Part shown: one piece after another, positions 258 to 14,947 of the stretch | How positions within the stretch are numbered: position 1 is the first letter of the stretch | Layout of the letters: the number at the start of each line of letters is the position of its first letter | DNA from: a virus | Virus genome (UHGV): UHGV-0068970 | Reading direction: 5' to 3' (one strand) | Length of the DNA stretch: 17,470 nucleotides | Program-made: the position numbers and the translations under genes | Notes under the pieces: model-generated | The model's input: the letters and a program-made list of their open reading frames with translations, nothing else | The model's database searches: none | What the model was told of the DNA's origin: nothing

Positions 258-390
258 TTTTTGGGACTCCTGGCTGATTAAGTATGTCGATAAGGCGTTT
301 CCATCCGTCACGTAATTTACGGGTGATTCGTTCAAGTAAAGATTCGGAAGGGCAGCCAGCAACAGGCCACCCTGCAATGGCATATTGCAT
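226..390 (-). CDS. cIII: cIII (FtsH protease inhibitor), 54 aa
   Basis: Reverse complement from 390 translates [54 protein letters not shown], recognisably lambda cIII. It is in a different frame from the 114..383 track ORF, so it is not listed there. Confidence 0.9.
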   Translation of the reverse strand: MQYAIAGWPVAGCPSESLLERITRKLRDGWKRLIDILNQPGVPKNGSNTYGYPD

Positions 391-462
391 GGTGTGCTCC
401 TTATTTATACATAACGAAAAACGCCTCGAGTGAAGCGTTATTGGTATGCGGTAACGCCGCGC

Positions 463-5509: not shown

Positions 5510-5576
5510 TGAAACAGGTGAGTTGAGTTCAAACTGTAGTACAATTCTCTCCAGTTTGAACAGGAAAGAATATGTT

Positions 5577-5909
5577 ATGAACCCTTATATTTATCTTGGT
5601 GGTGCAATACTTGCAGAGGTCATTGGTACAACCTTAATGAAGTTTTCAGAAGGTTTTACACGGTTATGGCCATCTGTTGGTACAATTATTTGTTATTGTG
5701 CATCATTCTGGTTATTAGCTCAGACGCTGGCTTATATTCCTACAGGGATTGCTTATGCTATCTGGTCAGGAGTCGGTATTGTCCTGATTAGCTTACTATC
5801 ATGGGGGTTTTTCGGCCAACGGCTGGACCTGCCAGCCGTTATAGGCATGATGTTGATTTGTGCTGGTGTGTTGGTTATTAATTTATTGTCACGAAGCACA
5901 CCACATTAA
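5577..5909 (+). CDS. emrE: EmrE small multidrug resistance (SMR) efflux transporter, 110 aa
   Basis: From the internal ATG at 5577: MNPYIYLGGAILAEVIGTTLMKFSEGFTRLWPSVGTIICYCASFWLLAQTLAYIPTGIAYAIWSGVGIVLISLLSWGFFGQRLDLPA..., recognisably E. coli EmrE (four TM helices, conserved Glu at position 14). emrE is a known DLP12 cargo gene. Confidence 0.9.
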   Translation: MNPYIYLGGAILAEVIGTTLMKFSEGFTRLWPSVGTIICYCASFWLLAQTLAYIPTGIAYAIWSGVGIVLISLLSWGFFGQRLDLPAVIGMMLICAGVLVINLLSRSTPH

Positions 5910-6153
5910 AAATAATTTCTTTTAAAAGACTGAAATATGGCGGTTCATATCTTTACATGGGCCGCTTTTGTTAATGTTTTTAGTTTTTGTGTATTCTTTT
6001 GTGCCTTCAAGATTATTGCGTAAGCAAATTGCAATACGATTATTGTTGTATATTCAAAAGAATGTGATCGTAATTGTCTTTTTAAATAAAAATTAAACAA
6101 AAATTATATCTCACCACTAAGGTTTATAAAAGCATACGTTAGCAGGTGTCACC

Positions 6154-7680
6154 ATGAAAAAAGCCATAGCATATATGCGATTTTCATCACCAGGTCAGAT
6201 GTCTGGCGACTCATTAAACCGACAGAGAAGACTTATTGCTGAATGGTTAAAGGTAAATAGTGATTATTATCTTGATACCATAACATATGAAGATTTAGGA
6301 TTAAGTGCATTCAAAGGAAAGCATGCACAATCAGGAGCTTTTTCGGAATTTTTAGATGCTATAGAGCATGGTTATATATTGCCAGGAACTACATTGCTAG
6401 TTGAAAGTCTGGACAGACTTTCAAGAGAAAAAGTCGGTGAAGCGATTGAGCGTCTGAAATTGATTTTGAATCACGGTATTGATGTTATAACTCTTTGCGA
6501 TAATACAGTCTATAATATTGACTCTTTGAATGATCCATATTCATTAATAAAAGCCATACTTATAGCACAAAGGGCAAATGAAGAAAGCGAGATAAAGTCA
6601 AGTCGGGTTAAATTATCATGGAAGAAAAAACGGCAGGATGCACTGGAGTCAGGCACGATTATGACGGCGTCTTGTCCGAGATGGCTCTCATTGGATGACA
6701 AAAGAACAGCTTTTATTCCAGACCCCGACAGGGTGAAAACGATTGAGCTAATTTTTAAACTCAGGATGGAAAGGCGATCATTGAATGCAATAGCCAAGTA
6801 TTTAAATGATCATGCTGTAAAAAATTTCTCAGGAAAAGAAAGTGCATGGGGGCCTTCTGTAATTGAAAAATTATTAGCGAATAAAGCTCTGATAGGTATA
6901 TGCGTACCTTCATATCGTGCAAGAGGTAAAGGAATAAGTGAAATCGCTGGCTATTATCCCAGAGTCATATCAGATGATTTGTTTTACGCTGTGCAGGAAA
7001 TTCGGTTGGCACCTTTTGGTATTAGCAATAGTAGCAAAAATCCTATGTTGATAAATCTACTTCGAACAGTTATGAAGTGCGAGGCTTGTGGTAATACCAT
7101 GATTGTTCAGGCGGTATCTGGAAGTTTGCATGGCTATTATGTTTGTCCGATGAGAAGACTGCATCGATGTGGCAGGCCATCAATAAAGAGAAATTTGGTT
7201 GATTATAATATCATTAATGAGTTGCTTTTTAATTGTAGTAAAATCCAACCAGTTGAAAACAAGAAAGATGCTAATGAAACTTTAGAGTTAAAAATTATTG
7301 AGCTCCATATGAAAATTAATAATTTAATTGCTGCATTATCTGTTGCGCCTGAAGTTACCGCTATAGCAGAAAAAATCAGAGTATTAGATAAGGAATTACG
7401 AAGGGCTTCTGTATCATTAAAAACTTTGAAGAGTAAAGCGGTGAGCTCACTTGGTGATTTTCATGCTATTGACTTAACCAGTAAAAATGGGCGAGAGCTA
7501 TGTCGTACACTTGCCTATAAAACATTCGAAAAAATCATAATCAATACAGATAATAAAACCTGTGATATCTATTTTATGAATGGCATTGTTTTTAAACACT
7601 ATCCTTTAATGAAAACAATATCCGCCCAGCAGGCGATAAGTACTCTCAAATATATGGTTGATGGTGAGGTTTATTTTTGA
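6154..7680 (+). CDS. ybcK: Large serine recombinase (resolvase catalytic domain + recombinase domain + zinc ribbon), YbcK-like, 508 aa
   Basis: N-terminal AIAYMRFSSPGQ...SLNRQ resolvase-type motif, central recombinase region, Cys cluster CEACGNTM...YYVCPMRRLHRCG, coiled-coil tail. Matches my recollection of DLP12 YbcK. AT-rich relative to the flanking phage genes. Confidence 0.85.
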   Translation: MKKAIAYMRFSSPGQMSGDSLNRQRRLIAEWLKVNSDYYLDTITYEDLGLSAFKGKHAQSGAFSEFLDAIEHGYILPGTTLLVESLDRLSREKVGEAIERLKLILNHGIDVITLCDNTVYNIDSLNDPYSLIKAILIAQRANEESEIKSSRVKLSWKKKRQDALESGTIMTASCPRWLSLDDKRTAFIPDPDRVKTIELIFKLRMERRSLNAIAKYLNDHAVKNFSGKESAWGPSVIEKLLANKALIGICVPSYRARGKGISEIAGYYPRVISDDLFYAVQEIRLAPFGISNSSKNPMLINLLRTVMKCEACGNTMIVQAVSGSLHGYYVCPMRRLHRCGRPSIKRNLVDYNIINELLFNCSKIQPVENKKDANETLELKIIELHMKINNLIAALSVAPEVTAIAEKIRVLDKELRRASVSLKTLKSKAVSSLGDFHAIDLTSKNGRELCRTLAYKTFEKIIINTDNKTCDIYFMNGIVFKHYPLMKTISAQQAISTLKYMVDGEVYF

Positions 7681-7791: not shown

Positions 7792-8115
7792 ATGGATGCT
7801 GGCGTTCTCGTTCTAGCAGTTCAACAATCCCCAATCACAAAACAATTCACTGATAACGAACTTTGCACACTCGCCTGGTTATGGCGAGCAGGGAATGTGA
7901 TGTTAATTGCCTACCAGAACGTTACTCATCTTCTTCAGGATGCGGAGCATGGTGAAGCTGGTCACTTCACTTCCATCGAGCAAGAATATCCCCAGATACT
8001 CAACAGAGCGCGAGCAATCCTCGTCCGAGAAACGGCACATGTAAAACTTCAGCCGTGGCAGGATGATAAGTGGAGTCGAGTATTGCCGCATTTACCTCAG
8101 AATCTGTTTCAATAA
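7792..8115 (+). CDS. Hypothetical protein, 107 aa (orphan ORF; possibly a gene remnant)
   Basis: Only long ORF between ybcK and the HNH-domain gene. GC-richer than both neighbours. Weak RBS. No motif recognised. Followed by a 10-bp perfect hairpin (8143-8168). Confidence 0.4.
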   Translation: MDAGVLVLAVQQSPITKQFTDNELCTLAWLWRAGNVMLIAYQNVTHLLQDAEHGEAGHFTSIEQEYPQILNRARAILVRETAHVKLQPWQDDKWSRVLPHLPQNLFQ

Positions 8116-8289: not shown

Positions 8290-9072
8290 ATGGACAATAT
8301 TAATAAACACGGGCTCTCAAGAAGAATACCTGAGACAATAAAACGTCAGATAAGGCAAAGGTGCGGCTTTGGCTGTGTAATTTGTGGATTTGGATTTTAT
8401 GATTATGAGCATTTTAAACCTGACTTCGTTGATGCCAAAGTACATGATCCGAATGGAATGACACTTCTTTGCTCCCAATGCAATCAAAAAAGAGCTCGTG
8501 GTAGACTTTCAGCACAGACAGTGGAAATAGCTGACAGAAATCCCAAGTGCTTACAGGCTGGTTTTGCAAATGAAATGTTTGATTTTCATAATGAGCCTAT
8601 AACAGTAAAATTTGCAGGAGTGACGTTTCATAACTGTCAAAATTTGATTGTAGTCAATGAACAACCCATTCTTTCTGTGAAACCTTCACCCATACCACAT
8701 GGACCGATGCTTTTATCAGGAATTTTCTGTAATTCTATTGGTAAGGAGACTTTACTGATAGATGAAAATGAATGGAAAGCTAAATCAGACAATTGGGATG
8801 TGGAGTGTACCGGCCCGCGTATAACAATACGACGTGGGCCAGGAGAGTTTGCCCTCGTTCTAAAAATGGAACCTCCAACAGGATTGATTGTTGAGCGTCT
8901 TGATATGTTGTATGAAGGGGTCAGGATGAAAGGAGATAAAGATCTGCTGGAAGTTTCGATTAATGGAGGTCCCTTGCACAGATGGCAATCATGCTCAATG
9001 TCAAATTGCCATACAGGGCTTGCGATTCAGGGCGGTATTAGAGCTGCTAATGATCCTTTGTATTGCGCCTAA
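8290..9072 (+). CDS. HNH-nuclease-domain protein with uncharacterised ~190-aa C-terminal domain, 260 aa
   Basis: N-terminus RCGFGCVICG...YDYEHFKPDF...HDPNGMTLLCSQCNQKRARG fits the HNH/beta-beta-alpha-Me signature; compare the canonical HNH at 17017-17367. AT-rich ORF with a TGn extended -10 (TGGTAAAAT, about 8250-8262). C-terminal domain not recognised. Confidence 0.7.
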   Translation: MDNINKHGLSRRIPETIKRQIRQRCGFGCVICGFGFYDYEHFKPDFVDAKVHDPNGMTLLCSQCNQKRARGRLSAQTVEIADRNPKCLQAGFANEMFDFHNEPITVKFAGVTFHNCQNLIVVNEQPILSVKPSPIPHGPMLLSGIFCNSIGKETLLIDENEWKAKSDNWDVECTGPRITIRRGPGEFALVLKMEPPTGLIVERLDMLYEGVRMKGDKDLLEVSINGGPLHRWQSCSMSNCHTGLAIQGGIRAANDPLYCA

Positions 9073-10669: not shown

Positions 10670-10754
10670 AGTCAGAGATAACAATCAACTAATACTGTTT
10701 TGTTGATTTTTGCTTGTAATTGGCGTTCTGGTCTGAGTTTTGTGGAGTAAGTTG

Positions 10755-11132
10755 ATGCGTGATATTCAGATGGTTCTTGAGCGTTGGGGAGCGTGGGCGG
10801 CTAATAATCATGAAGATGTGACCTGGTCGTCCATTGCCGCCGGTTTTAAGGGATTAATTCCTTCAAAAGTAAAATCTCGCCCACAATGTTGTGACGATGA
10901 CGCGATGATCATTTGCGGGTGCATGGCCCGTCTGAAAAAGAACAACAGCGATTTGCATGATTTATTGGTGGACTATTATGTCGGCGGCATGACTTTTATG
11001 GCGCTTGCACGTAAGCATGGGCGATCTGATTGTTGGGTTGGCAGGATGCTTCAGAAAGCTGAGGGCGTAGTGGAGGGTATGCTGATGGTGTTGGATCTCC
11101 GATTGGAGATGGATGCTGATTGTTCGAAATAA
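10755..11132 (+). CDS. quuD: Late-gene antiterminator Q (QuuD-type), about 125 aa
   Basis: [33 protein letters not shown]...[18 protein letters not shown]... recognised as DLP12 QuuD. ATG at 10755 preceded by GGAG. The track ORF begins at an upstream TTG (10740). Confidence 0.85.
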
Positions 11133-11230: not shown

Positions 11231-11259
11231 AGCCAGCCTCCCCAAAGGCTGGTTTTTTT
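11231..11259 (+). terminator. tR'-like rho-independent terminator downstream of Q (target of Q antitermination)
   Basis: Hairpin CCAGCC-tccccaaa-GGCTGG followed by TTTTTTT (11253-11259), about 100 nt after the quuD stop. Confidence 0.6.
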
Positions 11260-11287
11260 CTAATAAGTATTATTTCGGGTAGGGATT

Positions 11288-11812
11288 TTATTGTTTAACC
11301 CATAATAATTCATTGACATTGAATCCCAACTTTTGAGCGGTTCGCACATAGTCTGCTTTTACTTTATCTGGAATAGTTGGGGTCCTTGCCAGAATCCATA
11401 GGTATTCTCTGTTCGGACCACTGACAAGAGCATACTTATACTCATCATCCAGTTTGATTACATTATAGCCACCATAGAAGGGGCCAAAAAACGAAACCTT
11501 CAATGCTGCAGTTTTAGTATCTCCAGTAAAGTATGCTTTACCTTCGCTCTCGCTCCATTTATTTTTCGTTGGATCGTATCCACGGTTAAGTACACGAATC
11601 CCTCCGTCGTTCCGTTTTCCATAAGTAGCGCTGACCTGTTCCAGACCACGTTCGAACCGGTTCTCGAGGCGAGCTATTTCATACCATTTTCCGAGGTAGC
11701 GGTTGGCGTCAAAATTTGTAATCGGCTGCACACCTTTAGGTGGTGTCGGGGCCTTACATGCTATAAGAGTGAAAGAGAGTGCAATGCCAGTCAACACAGG
11801 CCATAACTTCAT
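11288..11812 (-). CDS. blc: Blc-like outer-membrane lipocalin lipoprotein, 174 aa
   Basis: Signal peptide with lipobox (LIAC). NFDANRYLGKWYEIARLENRFERGLEQVSATY...KVSFFGPFYGGYNVIKLD...YLWILARTP closely parallels E. coli Blc. Encoded antisense to the late transcript. Confidence 0.8.
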   Translation of the reverse strand: MKLWPVLTGIALSFTLIACKAPTPPKGVQPITNFDANRYLGKWYEIARLENRFERGLEQVSATYGKRNDGGIRVLNRGYDPTKNKWSESEGKAYFTGDTKTAALKVSFFGPFYGGYNVIKLDDEYKYALVSGPNREYLWILARTPTIPDKVKADYVRTAQKLGFNVNELLWVKQ

Positions 11813-12004
11813 AATAAATCCTGTACTTTTGATAGTTGAGAGTAAGTATGAAAGATAGATGATTACGACCGATCACTTAAAGAACTTTCATACTATATTA
11901 GGAATAGTCCATAACAGAAAAATTGTCAGTGATGACGCCAGAAAGGCAATTTATTCCGTGCACTACACAGTTTATGTGTTAATGAATTAGTCAAGGGGGA
12001 GAAT

Positions 12005-12964
12005 ATGATAAAAAAACCTGTGATTGGAATCAGCGGTTGTTTGGCCGGTTCTGCTGTTCGTTTTGATGGTGGTCACAAAAGAGCTGACTTTTTAATGGAC
12101 AAATTAGTGGAATGGGTAACATTCAGACCAGTATGTCCGGAAATGGCTATAGGGCTGCCAGTTCCGCGTCCTGCTCTACGTCTTGTGCGCTCGATGCAAG
12201 GAAATATACGGATGTGTTTCAGCCACGACCAGAATGAGGATGTGACAGAGAGAATGACAGAGTTTAGTCGTTCTTATATGGACAAATTAAAGGATGTATC
12301 GGGGTTTGTGGTTTGTGCTAAATCTCCCAGCTGTGGCATGGAGCGCGTGCGTGTCTATGATGAAAATGGTAATCGAGGTCGTAAAGATGGAGTGGGACTA
12401 TTTACGAGCACTTTGATGGAAAAGTTTTCCTGGCTACCGGTTGAAGAGGATGGGCGATTACATGATCCAGTGCTTCGTGAGAATTTTGTTGAAAGAGTTT
12501 TTGCTTTGCATGAGCTCAATCACCTTTACAAGGAGAAATTATCAAGAAGAGAGTTATTAGCTTTTCATAGTCGTTATAAGCTTCAGTTGTTGGCGCATAG
12601 TCAGGCAGGCTATAAAGATATGGGACCATTTGTGGCTGCAATACACGAGTGGGCGGACCTTGAATCATACTTTGAGGTGTATCGTGATAAGCTGATGGCG
12701 ATTCTCAGAAAACCTGCATCACGTAAAAATCACACGAATGTGCTGATGCATATACAGGGGTATTTTAGTAACTACTTAAGTACACGCCAGCGTAAAGAGT
12801 TGAGCGAGGTTATACTTAACTATCGTTCTGGCACATTACCTCTTCTTGCGCCGTTGACTCTGCTGAAGCATTATCTGGGTGAGTATCCTAATGATTACTT
12901 GCTTACACAGAATTACTTCGATCCCTATCCGGACGAACTGGCTCTAAGACTGATGGTAAATTAA
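12005..12964 (+). CDS. DUF523 (TudS-like putative [4Fe-4S] thiouracil desulfidase) / DUF1722 (YbgA-like) fusion protein, 319 aa
   Basis: N-terminal half carries the DUF523 pattern GISGCLAGSAVRFDG ... PVCPEMAIGLPVPRP ... CAKSPSCGM with three conserved Cys. C-terminal about 170 aa is consistent with a YbgA-like DUF1722 domain. AGGGGGA RBS. Domain assignment from memory, not a search. Confidence 0.7.
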   Translation: MIKKPVIGISGCLAGSAVRFDGGHKRADFLMDKLVEWVTFRPVCPEMAIGLPVPRPALRLVRSMQGNIRMCFSHDQNEDVTERMTEFSRSYMDKLKDVSGFVVCAKSPSCGMERVRVYDENGNRGRKDGVGLFTSTLMEKFSWLPVEEDGRLHDPVLRENFVERVFALHELNHLYKEKLSRRELLAFHSRYKLQLLAHSQAGYKDMGPFVAAIHEWADLESYFEVYRDKLMAILRKPASRKNHTNVLMHIQGYFSNYLSTRQRKELSEVILNYRSGTLPLLAPLTLLKHYLGEYPNDYLLTQNYFDPYPDELALRLMVN

Positions 12965-13315
12965 TTGTATGCGATATCATCCAAAAGGATGAGTTCCTGC
13001 ATGCAGGATATTTACAATCGTAAAAACTACACTATGATACCCAGAGTGTCAGTTTGTATAAAAACTCTGTTTACGCTGAAGAAACAATTGAGATGCAACT
13101 TAAAGTTGGTAAACATGCCAGTCAAAATATATAATATTATGATTCCACGCAGCTATATATAATATAACAGATTGGTTTAATAATTTGTCTTTGTGAGTTA
13201 AATACATAATTTTATACTTGTGATGCAATGAAATTTTCCTTATTGTTGAACTGGCGAATATTGATTTTCCACCTATACTTACCTGGTGTAACCCCAATGA
13301 TATCAGGTGGATAAT

Positions 13316-14047
13316 ATGCCATACATATGTTCTATCATTTTGGTGTTGAACTCGTTTGATGTCCGAATTGGTAAAGAAGATATTTTGTTTAAAAAAGGAA
13401 GTGCTGTTCTCATTGATTACAATTTAAAAGATTTTTTTTCATCAAATATAGATCATGTAATGATCGTAGATGTTGAAGAGAAAACAGTTAATGATTTCTT
13501 TAAAAGCAACACACTCTCACCTTTTTCTGTAAGAAGGTTTTATCCGGCATACTTGATGGTGGAATGTGAAGATTTTTCATTGTTAAAGAACTTGATTGCA
13601 TGCTTGAATTGTGATGGCAGAACTGTGGATTTTGTTAGAAATCAAATATCACTTGCATGTCTTGCTATCTTATCTTCAGAGAAAATAGTGCAAAGTTTTT
13701 TATTTGGATGTCTTAATAGTTTAGGAAGTAAAGTTAAGGCTATTATTCACACGGATATATCTGCAGCATGGAGACTTTGTGATATATCTTCAAGACTGTA
13801 TCTGAGTGAAAGTCTGTTAAAAAGAAAATTAAAGCACGAAGGCTTATCATTTAGTAAGTTAATTCTTGAAGAGCGAATGGTGATGGCGGAAAGGTTATTA
13901 AGCTACAATTTATATTCTGTTGGAAAAGTTGCTGAGATATGCGGTTATGAAAACACGTCATATTTTGTAAGTGTTTTCAGAAGGTATTTTGGTGTTCCTC
14001 CCCATCAATATTCATCAAGATTTTTTTTAGAAAAAGACATGATGTAA
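13316..14047 (+). CDS. AraC/XylS-family transcriptional regulator, about 243 aa
   Basis: C-terminal AraC-type HTH signature (...ERMVMAERLLSYNLYSVGKVAEICGYENTSYFVSVFRRYFGVPPHQY). Very AT-rich gene and upstream region. ATG 13316 has an AGGTGG RBS; the track's 13307 start is an upstream GTG. Confidence 0.8.
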   Translation: MPYICSIILVLNSFDVRIGKEDILFKKGSAVLIDYNLKDFFSSNIDHVMIVDVEEKTVNDFFKSNTLSPFSVRRFYPAYLMVECEDFSLLKNLIACLNCDGRTVDFVRNQISLACLAILSSEKIVQSFLFGCLNSLGSKVKAIIHTDISAAWRLCDISSRLYLSESLLKRKLKHEGLSFSKLILEERMVMAERLLSYNLYSVGKVAEICGYENTSYFVSVFRRYFGVPPHQYSSRFFLEKDMM

Positions 14048-14234
14048 CGTGATGCGTTTTAATGATTTTGTAATTTTCGTATTTGATAATTGTATGATGC
14101 TTTCAGCTACGCCAGAATAATCGCGGCGTTTTTCTTTTTGAATAGATGTTCAAGCCTTACGCTAATGTAACTTCTATACCTTTCCTCTTCGTTCCGAACC
14201 GTGTACACCATCCGTTATTTGCGGAGGTGAGGCT

Positions 14235-14450
14235 ATGAAATCCATGGATAAGTTAACAACGGGTGTCGCCTATGGCACCTCAGCAGGTAGTGCCGGTTAC
14301 TGGTTTTTACAGCTGCTCGATAAAGTCACGCCCTCACAGTGGGCAGCAATAGGTGTGCTGGGTAGCCTGGTATTTGGCCTGCTGACGTACCTGACAAACC
14401 TTTATTTCAAGATTAAAGAAGATAAGCGCAAGGCTGCGAGAGGTGAATAA
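14235..14450 (+). CDS. essD: Class II holin (phage 21 S-type pinholin), dual-start motif, 71 aa
   Basis: [71 protein letters not shown], recognisably S21/EssD. Two TM segments. Met1 and Met4 dual start. Confidence 0.9.
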
Positions 14451-14947
14451 TGCCTCCATCATTACGAAAAGCCGTTGCTGCTGCTATTGGTGGCGGAGCA
14501 ATTGCTATAGCATCAGTGTTAATCACTGGCCCAAGTGGTAACGATGGTCTGGAAGGTGTCAGCTACATACCATACAAAGATATTGTTGGTGTATGGACTG
14601 TATGTCACGGGCATACAGGAAAAGACATCATGCTCGGTAAAACGTATACCAAAGCAGAATGCAAAACACTCTTGAATAAAGACCTTGCCACGGTCGCCAG
14701 ACAAATTAACCCGTACATCAAAGTCGATATACCGGAAACAACGCGCGGCGCTCTTTACTCGTTCGTCTACAACGTGGGTGCTGGCAATTTCAGAACATCG
14801 ACGCTTCTTCGCAAAATAAACCACGGTGATATCAAAGGCGCATGTGATCAGCTACGGCGCTGGACATACGCTGGCGGTAATCAATGGAAAGGACTGATGA
14901 CTCGCCGTGAGATTGAGCGTGAAGTCTGTTTGTGGGGGAAACAATGA
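14450..14947 (+). CDS. rrrD: SAR endolysin (T4-lysozyme-fold muramidase with N-terminal signal-anchor-release domain), 165 aa
   Basis: Gly/Ala-rich hydrophobic N-terminus ([20 protein letters not shown]) then a lysozyme catalytic region (E...D...T spacing), R21/RrrD-like. TAATG overlap with the holin stop. Confidence 0.9.

What the first reader, a model, noticed from the sequence alone, without database searches (positions are those of the whole stretch)
12965..14047. AT-rich AraC-family regulator with long AT-rich leader
The gene and its ~350-bp upstream region are strikingly AT-rich, typical of horizontally acquired, H-NS-silenced regulators. Prophage-borne AraC-like regulators in enterobacteria are known to cross-regulate host virulence and acid-resistance regulons. 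The leader starts with a perfect 14-bp palindrome TCCTGCATGCAGGA (12993-13006).
Basis: partly seen in the sequence, partly recalled or inferred. Interest (0 to 1): 0.45.

Follow-up and report, generated by a model that had tools for sequence, protein, structure and literature searches.

The report
Prophage AraC-type regulator, PatE/PsrB relative
This is an intact but uncharacterised AraC-family regulator gene carried as cargo just upstream of the lysis genes of a lambda-like E. coli prophage, and it is a relative of known prophage regulators of acid resistance, so it is an ordinary new member of a known kind.

Summary
The gene is real and intact. It runs from ATG 13316 to 14047 on the + strand and encodes 243 aa with a complete two-HTH AraC/XylS DNA-binding domain. 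The gene and the 351 bp upstream of it are 32% G+C, against 44% for the whole window.

It is 54% identical to the O157 OI-8 regulator (presumed PatE), 40% to PsrB (Z2104), and 32-34% to GadW, AppY and YdeO, in each case over the full length. It lies between the Q antiterminator with its tR'-like terminator and the holin, after two other cargo genes (Blc-like, YbgA-like). Relatives of 56-64% identity occupy the same slot directly upstream of the holin. The cassette has its own conserved proximal promoter-like block (CTATACTTA, sigma-S-like) and a conserved terminator. That is the classic moron layout.

The 14-bp palindrome exists, but at 12995-13008, not 12993-13006. One such palindrome per window is expected by chance. 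It is not conserved in the 87% allele. It is one arm of a larger stem-loop that closes the upstream ybgA-like gene. An operator role is unlikely, and most of the "leader" is probably untranscribed spacer.

H-NS silencing and the target genes remain inferences.

Unplanned finding: a T8 run (13432-13439) is T7, a frameshift, in 232 of 534 complete genomes that carry this segment, on several haplotypes.

The parts
13316..14047 (+). CDS of the AraC/XylS-family regulator (243 aa; an in-frame GTG at 13307 would add 3 codons). The N-terminal beta-rich domain plus helices is about residues 1-134. The DNA-binding domain is about residues 135-235.
   Evidence: ORF list and translation. PGAP start in an identical locus. 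Pfam HTH_18 and HTH_AraC above cut-off. AlphaFold2 model pLDDT 86.8. Foldseek full-length matches to Rns, CsvR and ToxT, and DNA-binding-domain match to GadX 3mkl at rmsd 1.4-2.1 A. dN/dS 0.15-0.26 between alleles.
13718..14020 (+). DNA-binding domain with two helix-turn-helix motifs. The predicted recognition helices are ESLLKRKLKH (residues 165-174) and TSYFVSVFRRYF (residues 214-225).
   Evidence: phmmer match to the GadX DNA-binding domain, E 2.5e-20, residues 136-235. Secondary structure of the model. Helix 3 differs from the presumed PatE at one residue. S164-K169 are invariant in 26 family members.
13432..13439 (+). T8 homopolymer in codons 39-42. It is a hot spot for -1/+1 frameshifts in this allele. 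T7 gives a stop after about 45 codons.
   Evidence: Cluster P0011 (195 aa, starting at M49) has 623 member sequences, against 1131 for the full-length cluster.
13305..13310 (+). Shine-Dalgarno sequence AGGTGG, 5 nt before the ATG.
   Evidence: Sequence. GGTGG is invariant in six alleles and relatives.
13251..13281 (+). Proximal promoter-like element. The -35-like hexamer is CTGGCG (TTGGCA in the presumed-PatE leader and its 85%-type relative L104), followed by a 17-nt spacer and the -10 hexamer TATACT at 13274-13279. C at -13 and TA downstream give CTATACTTA. This is the only upstream block conserved across the whole family. The predicted transcription start is near 13286.
   Evidence: Alignment A3 and sequences. 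The resemblance to the sigma-S -10 consensus is from my own knowledge. Z0321 is reported as RpoS-dependent (PMC2907692). Transcription itself was not tested.
13039..13250 (+). AT-rich variable spacer. One allele has a 54-bp insertion here and another has a deletion. No conserved ORF and no Rfam match.
   Evidence: Alignment A1, ORF comparison, Rfam.
13011..13038 (+). Distal sigma-70 promoter-like site TTTACA-16-TATGAT (10 of 12 matches). It is conserved in all three ybgA-linked alleles. Its function is unknown. It could produce a long-leader transcript.
   Evidence: Consensus scan and alignment A1. The scan as a whole found no more sites than shuffles (13 against 11 +/- 3.1).
12965..13008 (+). 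Stem-loop immediately after the ybgA-like stop codon. The outer stem pairs 12965-12974 with 12995-13006, and the inner hairpin pairs 12977-12982 with 12987-12992. Most likely a 3'-end or weak terminator structure of the upstream gene.
   Evidence: Folds: dG -20.8 kcal/mol, z -4.5 in the window; -18.7, z -3.1 in the 89% allele, with only wobble-compatible changes. The 87% allele keeps only a different 5-bp hairpin, TTCTC-CTTA-GAGAA. The terminator scan did not call it because the T tract is poor.
14109..14139 (+). Intrinsic-terminator-like hairpin ACGCC...GGCGT followed by TTTTTCTTTTT, downstream of the regulator gene. The stem is 7 bp in other alleles. The window has a 1-nt deletion that shortens it to 5 bp.
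   Evidence: Sequence, fold, alignment A5 showing a conserved hairpin plus T run in L003, L004 and L104.
10740..11132 (+). Late antiterminator Q (context).
   Evidence: Pfam Phage_antitermQ, 173 bits.
11231..11264 (+). tR'-like intrinsic terminator downstream of Q (context). Everything from here to the holin gene is late-operon cargo.
   Evidence: Terminator scan: 9-bp stem, 5 G-C pairs, T run.
11288..11812 (-). Blc-type lipocalin lipoprotein gene (neighbouring cargo).
   Evidence: Pfam Lipocalin_2. NCBIfam Blc, 316 bits, above cut-off.
12005..12964 (+). YbgA-like gene (2-thiouracil desulfurase domain plus DUF1722), neighbouring cargo. The stem-loop and palindrome follow its stop codon.
   Evidence: Pfam. 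PGAP names it 'YbgA family protein'.
14235..14947 (+). Holin (P21 S type) and lysozyme, the start of the lysis cassette directly downstream.
   Evidence: Pfam Phage_holin_2_1 and Phage_lysozyme.

Best explanation
Window 13316-14047 encodes a functional AraC/XylS-type transcription activator of the GadW/YdeO/AppY/PatE/Psr clade, carried as a moron of a lambdoid prophage.

Shown here:
- The protein has a ToxT/Rns-like two-domain architecture and an intact double-HTH domain.
- It evolves under purifying selection.
- The cassette of promoter-like block, SD, ORF and terminator hairpin is conserved.
- The cassette always sits in the late operon between Q/tR' and the holin gene, with or without the blc and ybgA cargo.

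Inferred:
- In the lysogen the gene is transcribed from its own weak proximal promoter. Its -10 region, CTATACTTA, looks sigma-S-type, so expression would rise in stationary phase or stress.
- Expression is probably damped by H-NS on the 32% G+C island.
- On induction it is also read through from pR' by Q-modified polymerase.
- The protein binds AT-rich sites upstream of host promoters. Because its recognition helices are nearly those of PatE, the likely targets are the acid-fitness-island promoters gadE and hdeAB. That would raise acid resistance and, in LEE-positive hosts, indirectly lower type III secretion.

The 14-bp palindrome is not part of this regulator's control region. It is the 3' arm of a stem-loop that ends the upstream ybgA-like transcription unit.
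For: Family and intactness:
- Pfam HTH_18 and HTH_AraC score above their cut-offs.
- PDB sequence matches are GadX DNA-binding domain E 2.5e-20, CsvR and Rns about 1e-17, and ToxT 1e-9 to 1e-10 over residues 22/35-233.
- The AlphaFold2 model has pLDDT 86.8. Foldseek gives full-length matches to Rns, CsvR and ToxT, and the GadX domain superposes at rmsd 1.4-2.1 A.

Clade:
- BLASTP identities are 54% to the O157 OI-8 regulator and 40% to Z2104/PsrB. The PsrB locus was confirmed with the published Z2104 primers.
- Identities to GadW, AppY and YdeO are 34%, 32% and 32%, all full length.
- The best full-length NCBIfam model is YdeO, E 7e-37, but below its cut-off.

Function of relatives:
- PatE and PsrB activate gadE/hdeAB and repress LEE (PMC10877973).
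- AppY is another prophage AraC member feeding into acid resistance (PMC10057817).

Selection:
- dN/dS is 0.15-0.26 overall and 0.08-0.16 in the DNA-binding half.

Moron layout:
- Q, tR', blc, ybgA, regulator, holin order.
- Same slot in phages 1H12 and IdasGreatGrand.
- Same slot in two other alleles.
- Same slot in relatives of 64% and 56% identity with different Q families and no blc or ybgA.
- Conserved proximal promoter-like block and downstream terminator hairpin.

Other:
- Z0321 is reported RpoS-dependent (PMC2907692).
- Composition.
- Palindrome and stem-loop.
Against: - No expression, binding or phenotype data exist for this protein. All database names are generic, and no paper cites its accessions.
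- The target assignment is extrapolated from relatives of 40-54% identity. Helix 6 differs from PatE at three positions.
- The window's -35-like hexamer is poor (CTGGCG, 3 of 6), and the proximal promoter did not pass the consensus scan.
- No match to the recalled H-NS TCGATAAATT motif (up to 2 mismatches) falls in 12965-14234.
- Nearly half of the complete genomes with this allele carry a frameshift. The gene is therefore dispensable, and perhaps counter-selected, in many lineages.
Confidence: 0.6

Rival explanations
1. The regulator serves the phage rather than the host. It would control neighbouring cargo (blc, ybgA) or the timing of late or lysis gene expression, which would explain why it is always placed directly upstream of the holin.
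For: The gene is directly upstream of the holin in every full-context locus examined, across different Q families. Relative L103 is at the same place at a contig end.
Against: The Q-S interval is a general insertion hot spot for cargo. DLP12 has nmpC there, and Stx phages carry stx there (my own knowledge). Relatives L103 and L104 lack blc and ybgA. The presumed PatE lies outside any late operon, yet PatE is reported to regulate host genes, as is PsrB. The frameshifted allele persists in many genomes. I did not check whether the rest of those prophages is intact.
Confidence: 0.1
2. The gene is decaying cargo with no current role. AT-rich DNA with an ORF that is being lost by homopolymer slippage.
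For: T7 frameshift in 232 of 534 complete genomes against 242 with T8. PGAP annotates such a copy as a frameshifted pseudogene. Independent T7 or T9 events occur on haplotypes whose nearest neighbours are T8. The window copy also has a weakened terminator.
Against: The window copy is intact. dN/dS of 0.15-0.26 across alleles, and 0.08-0.16 in the DNA-binding half, shows long-term purifying selection. Three diverged alleles and more distant relatives all keep full-length ORFs and the same promoter block. Intact copies are carried by isolated phages.
Confidence: 0.15
3. The 14-bp palindrome is an operator for a dimeric regulator (the AraC-like protein itself or a host factor) that controls the distal promoter-like site just downstream.
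For: The palindrome ends 2 nt before the -35-like hexamer of the TTTACA-16-TATGAT site. Its centre is about 44 nt upstream of the start that site would give, which is a typical activator or repressor position (inference).
Against: A palindrome of this size is expected by chance. It carries a mismatch in the 89% allele and is replaced by unrelated sequence in the 87% allele, while the neighbouring promoter-like block is invariant. From my own knowledge, AraC-family proteins bind asymmetric sites of about 17-20 bp, not short perfect palindromes. It pairs with sequence at the ybgA stop in a much more stable structure. It is absent from relatives that lack ybgA.
Confidence: 0.08
4. The upstream region is a long structured 5' UTR. 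Its CCACCT (13269-13274) pairs with the Shine-Dalgarno AGGTGG (13305-13310), so translation would be gated, for example by temperature as for ToxT and LcrF.
For: An 11-nt inverted repeat, 91% complementary, links 13264-13274 to 13305-13315. Both arms are invariant in three alleles while the loop varies. The minimum-free-energy folds contain the hairpin. The presumed-PatE leader can also pair its Shine-Dalgarno sequence with a different upstream sequence.
Against: Fold energies are no better than shuffles (z -0.3 to -1.3). There is no covariation. The 'anti-SD' lies immediately upstream of, and abuts, the family-wide -10 block, so it would be absent from a transcript started at the proximal promoter. 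In the 64% and 56% relatives that position is not complementary to the Shine-Dalgarno sequence. No Rfam match.
Confidence: 0.07

Closest known systems
PatE (Z0321, O-island 8 / CP-933H of E. coli O157:H7 EDL933)
   Same: Full-length homologue with 54% identity over 235 residues. Same length class and the same N-terminal MxxxCS motif. Recognition helix 3 is identical except for its last residue. The upstream promoter-like block (TATACTT) and the GGTGGAT Shine-Dalgarno region are shared. A PatE-type gene (dN 0.08 against the O157 copy, about 85% identical, my estimate) sits in the same Q-holin slot in another prophage. PatE is reported to activate gadE, gadBC and hdeAB and to lower LEE genes (PMC10877973). 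It is RpoS-dependent (PMC2907692).
   Different: Only 54% identical, with the N-terminal domain much more diverged (dN about 0.6). In O157 the gene lies next to tail-fibre genes and IS remnants, not in a late operon. I equate WP_000246059.1 with Z0321 from its position and family, not from a sequence given in a paper. This protein's function is untested.
PsrB (Z2104, OI-57) and PsrA, 'prophage-encoded secretion regulators' of EHEC
   Same: Full-length homologue with 40% identity. The locus was confirmed as Z2104 with published primers. It also lies downstream of a prophage antiterminator-like gene and upstream of the lysis genes. PsrB is reported to bind the hdeA and gadE promoters and to raise acid resistance.
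   Different: More distant than PatE, with a short, unrelated upstream region followed by tRNA genes. I found no PsrA-like ORF in the CP-933N region of the re-sequenced EDL933, so PsrA could not be compared.
GadW, YdeO and AppY of E. coli K-12 (AraC/XylS regulators of acid resistance and stationary-phase genes; AppY is on prophage DLP12)
   Same: 32-34% identity over the full length. YdeO is the best full-length NCBIfam model. The GadX DNA-binding domain is 41% identical and superposes at 1.4-2.1 A. AppY is likewise prophage-borne, and its expression is reported to depend on H-NS and RpoS (PMC10057817).
   Different: Scores are far below every equivalog cut-off (YdeO 127 bits against 348; GadX 85.5 against 500). 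It is therefore a paralogue, not an orthologue. The genomic location also differs.
Rns/CsvR (ETEC) and ToxT (Vibrio cholerae), structurally solved virulence AraC-family activators
   Same: Best full-length structural matches to the model (Foldseek E 1e-11 to 1e-8, TM about 0.5). Same two-domain plan: N-terminal beta-rich domain, helical linker, double HTH.
   Different: 17-20% identity. Whether the fatty-acid pocket residues of Rns (H20, R75) or ToxT are present was not examined, so ligand control is unknown.

Membership tests
AraC/XylS family of transcription regulators | C-terminal domain of about 100 aa with two helix-turn-helix motifs that matches the family profiles above the curated threshold | tested here: met
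   Pfam HTH_18 54.9 bits (cut-off 33.6) and HTH_AraC 44.1 bits (cut-off 26.6). No stop or frameshift in the window copy.
AraC/XylS family of transcription regulators | Seven-helix DNA-binding fold as in MarA and GadX | tested here: met
   AlphaFold2 model with block pLDDT 83-96 over residues 131-230. Foldseek: GadX 3mkl rmsd 1.4-2.1 A with TM(target) 0.87-0.92, and MarA 1bl0 rmsd 2.6 A. This is a model, not an experimental structure.
AraC/XylS family of transcription regulators | Sequence-specific DNA binding and transcription activation | not testable with these tools
   Needs EMSA, ChIP or reporter assays.
GadW/YdeO/AppY/PatE/Psr clade (acid-resistance-linked AraC regulators of E. coli) | Homology over the whole length, including the N-terminal domain, not only the double HTH | tested here: met
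   BLASTP alignments span residues 1 to about 235. Presumed PatE 54%, PsrB 40%, GadW 34%, AppY 32%, YdeO 32%.
GadW/YdeO/AppY/PatE/Psr clade (acid-resistance-linked AraC regulators of E. coli) | Regulates gadE, hdeAB or AR2 genes | not testable with these tools
   Inferred only from relatives (PMC10877973) and near-identity of recognition helix 3.
YdeO / GadX orthologue (NCBIfam equivalogs) | Score at or above the curated equivalog cut-off | tested here: not met
   YdeO 127.3 bits against 348. GadX 85.5 against 500.
Phage moron (autonomous cargo unit in the late operon) | Located between essential phage genes, with composition different from its neighbours | tested here: met
   Lies between Q/tR' and the holin. 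32% G+C against 43-48% for the neighbours. Present or absent independently of blc and ybgA.
Phage moron (autonomous cargo unit in the late operon) | Own promoter upstream and terminator downstream | tested here: inconclusive
   Promoter-like block conserved family-wide. Hairpin plus T run conserved in four of the five loci aligned. Both are sequence predictions only. The window's -35 is weak and its terminator stem is shortened.
H-NS-silenced xenogeneic gene | AT content well above the host average | tested here: met
   31.8-31.9% G+C. The E. coli average of about 51% is from my own knowledge.
H-NS-silenced xenogeneic gene | H-NS occupancy and derepression in an hns mutant | not testable with these tools
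   No ChIP or expression data are available. The motif scan was uninformative: 27 sites against 26.6 expected in the window, none in the locus.
Palindromic operator | Sequence conservation of both half-sites among alleles that keep the regulated promoter | tested here: not met
   One mismatch in the 89% allele. Replaced by TTCTCCTTAGAGAA in the 87% allele, while the adjacent TTTACA...TATGAT block is invariant.
Phase-variable (contingency) locus | Homopolymer in the 5' coding region with recurrent, independent length changes | tested here: met
   T8 at codons 39-42. 232 exact T7 against 242 exact T8 among 534 genomes. T7 or T9 occurs on at least 5 haplotypes whose nearest neighbours are T8.
Phase-variable (contingency) locus | High-frequency reversible switching within a clone, with an adaptive ON/OFF phenotype | not testable with these tools
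   Needs fluctuation assays. An 8-nt run is short for classical contingency loci (my own knowledge).

The most novel reading that the evidence does not exclude
The T8 run at codons 39-42 works as a reversible ON/OFF switch for a prophage regulator that rewires the host acid-resistance (and, in LEE-positive strains, virulence) regulon. E. coli populations carrying this prophage would then be mixtures of regulator-ON and regulator-OFF cells. The near 1:1 split of T8 and T7 among sequenced genomes would reflect switching under fluctuating selection rather than simple decay.
Probability: 0.12. Interest if true: 0.6.

Novelty: new member of a known kind. Interest (0 to 1): 0.3.

Why it matters
About one in five complete E. 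coli genomes (1085 of 5426 by DNA match) carries this gene or a close allele. Yet it has only generic names in the databases searched, and no paper in the library cites its accessions.

If it behaves like PatE and PsrB, it is a widespread, horizontally mobile input into the gadE/hdeAB acid-resistance circuit. It occurs in commensal, ETEC and multidrug-resistant lineages, and it would explain some strain-to-strain differences in acid tolerance.

The common frameshift variant gives a natural ON/OFF comparison.

None of this changes current concepts. It extends a known class of prophage AraC-like regulators.

Tried and rejected
1. **Palindrome as a significant signal.** Rejected. Simulations expect about 1.3 per window, and it is not conserved.

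2. **SD-sequestering hairpin or RNA thermometer in the leader.** Fold energies are not better than shuffles. The anti-SD arm lies upstream of the conserved -10 block and is not conserved in more distant relatives. No Rfam family matches.

3. **Small ORFs in the leader.** These are + 12965-13162, - 13100-13297, and a 28-codon upstream ORF at 13228-13314. Their reading frames are not kept in the 87% allele. One phage record annotates a 57-aa CDS there, which I regard as an over-call.

4. **Second promoter-like site, 13106-13135.** Its spacing is destroyed by a 54-bp insertion in one allele and the site is deleted in another.

5. **Repeats in the leader as AraC-type sites.** Only an 11-nt two-copy repeat was found, and it is not conserved.

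6. **H-NS motif scan.** No enrichment. Uninformative.

7. **Defence-system role.** No PADLOC hit for the regulator or its neighbours.

8. **Primary papers.** I tried to read the PatE, PsrB and Psr papers (PMC3416394, PMC4288888, PMC7099609). They are not held. Statements on these proteins therefore come from two reviews and the AppY paper.

9. **PsrA.** I looked for it in EDL933 CP-933N and found no AraC-like ORF.

10. **Species-representative genome search.** It returned only one near-identical hit, in a MAG labelled Nanosynbacter, which is probably E. coli contamination (my inference), plus unrelated AraC domains.
Full report
**Observation**

The window is a lambdoid prophage. Pfam identifies the following, in order:
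- sieB
- a cI-like repressor
- O and P
- an emrE-like SMR gene
- a YbcK-type serine recombinase
- a nin region
- Q (10740-11132)
- a Blc-like lipocalin on the minus strand (11288-11812)
- a YbgA-like gene (12005-12964)
- the ORF of interest
- a P21-type holin (14235-14450) and a lysozyme

Sliding-window G+C falls to 0.30-0.34 between about 12900 and 14100. Exact counts give 31.9% for 12965-13315 and 31.8% for the CDS. The window as a whole is 44.1% and the flanking genes are 43-48%.

The ORF is intact. PGAP, on an identical chromosomal copy, starts it at the ATG that corresponds to window 13316. AGGTGG lies 5 nt upstream of that ATG.

The palindrome TCCTGCATGCAGGA is perfect but lies at 12995-13008, 2 nt from the stated position. 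It is the only 14-bp perfect palindrome in the window. First-order Markov simulations give 1.3 +/- 1.1, and 73% contain at least one.

**What the protein is**

Pfam HTH_18 and HTH_AraC both score above their gathering thresholds. No NCBIfam equivalog cut-off is reached. The best full-length model is YdeO, at 127 bits against a cut-off of 348. PHROGs places the protein in phrog_1450, of unknown function.

By sequence, the nearest solved structures are:
- the GadX DNA-binding domain (E 2.5e-20)
- CsvR and Rns (about 1e-17)
- ToxT (1e-9 to 1e-10, over residues 22/35-233)

An AlphaFold2 model built on 26 family members has mean pLDDT 86.8. Foldseek matches Rns, CsvR and ToxT over the full length. 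The GadX domain superposes at 1.4-2.1 A.

Pairwise BLASTP identities are as follows:

| Protein | Identity | Extent |
|---|---|---|
| O157 O-island-8 AraC protein | 54% | full length |
| OI-57 protein (PsrB) | 40% | full length |
| GadW | 34% | full length |
| AppY | 32% | full length |
| YdeO | 32% | full length |
| GadX | 41% | DNA-binding domain only |

I take the O-island-8 protein to be PatE/Z0321 from its position and family. I confirmed the OI-57 gene as Z2104/PsrB because both published Z2104 primers lie inside it.

Recognition helix 3 (ESLLKRKLKH) differs from the presumed PatE only at its last residue.

Reviews report that PatE and PsrB activate gadE, gadBC and hdeAB, bind the hdeA promoter, and lower LEE expression (PMC10877973; PMC8565820). 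The AppY paper makes the same general point for prophage AraC regulators (PMC10057817).

**Distribution and context**

The 1.27-kb locus matches 1085 of 5426 complete E. coli genomes. Of these, 591 match at 99% identity or more.

Three alleles (100%, about 89% and about 87% DNA identity) all lie in the order Q, lipocalin (minus strand), YbgA, regulator, holin. The same order is found in the isolated phages 1H12 and IdasGreatGrand.

The large protein database shows a narrow family, named only from E. coli and Shigella, with only generic names.

Relatives of 64% and 56% identity sit directly between a Q gene of another family, followed in L104 by a tR'-type terminator, and the holin. They have no lipocalin or YbgA gene. 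The regulator cassette is therefore an independent unit whose constant neighbour is the holin gene.

A good intrinsic terminator follows Q in the window at 11231-11254. All three cargo genes therefore lie downstream of tR' in the late operon.

**Anatomy of the upstream region**

Aligning the three ybgA-linked alleles shows four zones.

1. *12965-13008.* This folds into a long stem-loop that starts at the first base after the ybgA stop codon. The window gives dG -20.8 kcal/mol, z -4.5, with 0 of 200 shuffles as stable. The 89% allele gives -18.7 kcal/mol, z -3.1, and its two substitutions in the outer stem are wobble-compatible. In the 87% allele the sequence is different, and only a 5-bp hairpin (TTCTC/GAGAA) remains.

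2. *13011-13038.* This is a 10-of-12 sigma-70-like site, TTTACA-16-TATGAT. It is invariant in all three alleles.

3. *About 13039-13250.* This is a variable AT-rich stretch, with a 54-bp insertion in one allele and a deletion in another.

4. *The last 90 nt or so.* This stretch is conserved.

When the 64%, 56% and presumed-PatE upstream regions are added, the only invariant block left is TATACTT, plus GGTGG and the ATG.
- In the presumed-PatE leader and its close relative L104, TATACT is preceded at 18 nt by TTGGCA.
- In the window, CTGGCG (13251-13256) is followed by 17 nt and then TATACT (13274-13279).
- In the window-type alleles, C at -13 and TA downstream give CTATACTTA.

From my own knowledge this resembles the sigma-S-preferred -10 element. 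That fits the reported RpoS dependence of Z0321.

I therefore read the proximal block as the cassette's own promoter, with a predicted start near 13286. On this reading most of the "leader" is spacer. This is a sequence inference, not a measurement.

Downstream of the gene, a hairpin followed by a T run is conserved in the other two window-type alleles and in the PatE-type relative L104. The window copy has a 1-nt deletion that shortens the stem from 7 to 5 bp.

**Mechanism proposed**

Shown:
- an intact AraC-family activator-type protein under purifying selection (dN/dS 0.15-0.26 overall, 0.08-0.16 in the DNA-binding half)
- a promoter, gene and terminator layout in the late operon

Inferred:
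- low-level, stationary-phase-biased transcription in the lysogen
- probable damping by H-NS because of the composition
- Q-dependent read-through on induction
- activation of the acid-fitness-island promoters by analogy with PatE and PsrB

**Ideas tested and set aside**

*SD-sequestering hairpin.* CCACCT at 13269-13274 can pair with AGGTGG at 13305-13310. However:
- the energies are no better than shuffles (z -0.3 to -1.3)
- the upstream arm lies 5' of the conserved -10 block
- the pairing is absent in more distant relatives

*Other negative results.*
- No Rfam family matches the leader.
- Leader ORFs are not conserved.
- The scan for the motif I recall as the high-affinity H-NS site was uninformative.
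- PADLOC gave nothing.

**Unplanned finding**

The window allele has a T8 run at 13432-13439, in codons 39-42. Among 534 complete genomes with the surrounding 78 bp, 242 match the T8 form exactly and 232 match a T7 form exactly.

T7 gives a stop after about 45 codons, and PGAP marks such a copy "frameshifted".

Among the viral-contig loci aligned, T7 occurs seven times and T9 once, on at least five distinct haplotypes. For five of the eight, the nearest neighbour is a T8 sequence, at 1-7 SNPs over 2.4 kb. T7 sequences lie 11-23 SNPs from one another. The change has therefore arisen repeatedly.

Other alleles have interrupted or shorter runs at this position. A 195-aa form starting at M49 is a large cluster in the protein database, with 623 member sequences against 1131 for the full-length cluster.

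Two readings remain open: recurrent loss of a dispensable or costly gene, or a reversible switch. The large T7 count may be inflated by oversampled clinical clones.

**Verdict**

The palindrome and the "long leader" are over-read.

The gene is an uncharacterised but unsurprising new member of the PatE/Psr/GadW-type clade. Interest is modest.

Noticed in passing
window 13432-13439: T8 homopolymer inside the regulator gene. A T7 frameshift variant is about as common as the intact form among complete E. coli genomes (232 against 242 of 534). It has arisen on several haplotypes, and PGAP annotates such a copy as a frameshifted pseudogene.
   Followed up: partly
window 14109-14139: The terminator hairpin after the regulator gene has a 1-nt deletion relative to other alleles (CGC-GGCGT against CGCTGGCGT). 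This shortens the stem from 7 to 5 bp, so read-through into the holin gene may be higher in this copy.
   Followed up: no
window 345-403 (- strand): Rfam Lambda_thermo (lambda cIII thermoregulator RNA) scores 88.5 bits against a gathering score of 50. It confirms the lambda-like early-left region.
   Followed up: no
window 5523-7680: DLP12-like cargo between ren and the nin region: an emrE-type small multidrug resistance gene (5523-5909) and a 508-aa serine recombinase 97% identical to K-12 YbcK (6154-7680). This stretch is another AT-rich island of 30-40% G+C.
   Followed up: partly
window 8290-9072: A 260-aa ORF with no Pfam or PADLOC match. It matches only phrog_6544 (unknown function), plus a faint HNH-like hit. 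It sits after a truncated antirepressor-like ORF (7792-8115).
   Followed up: partly
window 11288-12964: Two metabolic or envelope cargo genes in the late operon: a Blc-type outer-membrane lipocalin (minus strand) and a YbgA-like protein with a 2-thiouracil-desulfurase domain plus DUF1722. They travel with the regulator in about 970 complete genomes and in isolated phages. Their role for phage or host is unknown.
   Followed up: partly
L005/L006 (EDL933 NZ_CP008957.1, 1.61-1.70 Mb): Reviews place psrA (Z1789) in O-island 50 / CP-933N. tblastn with the window protein found no AraC-like ORF anywhere in that prophage in the re-sequenced EDL933 genome.
   Followed up: partly
proteins P0046-P0055: The PsrB-like branch also contains large clusters of N-terminally shortened forms of about 195 aa (one has 955 member sequences). 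N-terminal truncation may be common across this regulator family.
   Followed up: no
L010 (JARKOR010000151.1): A 3.2-kb contig binned as a 'Candidatus Nanosynbacter' MAG carries a copy whose protein is 99% identical to the window regulator. This is almost certainly a mis-binned E. coli prophage contig.
   Followed up: no
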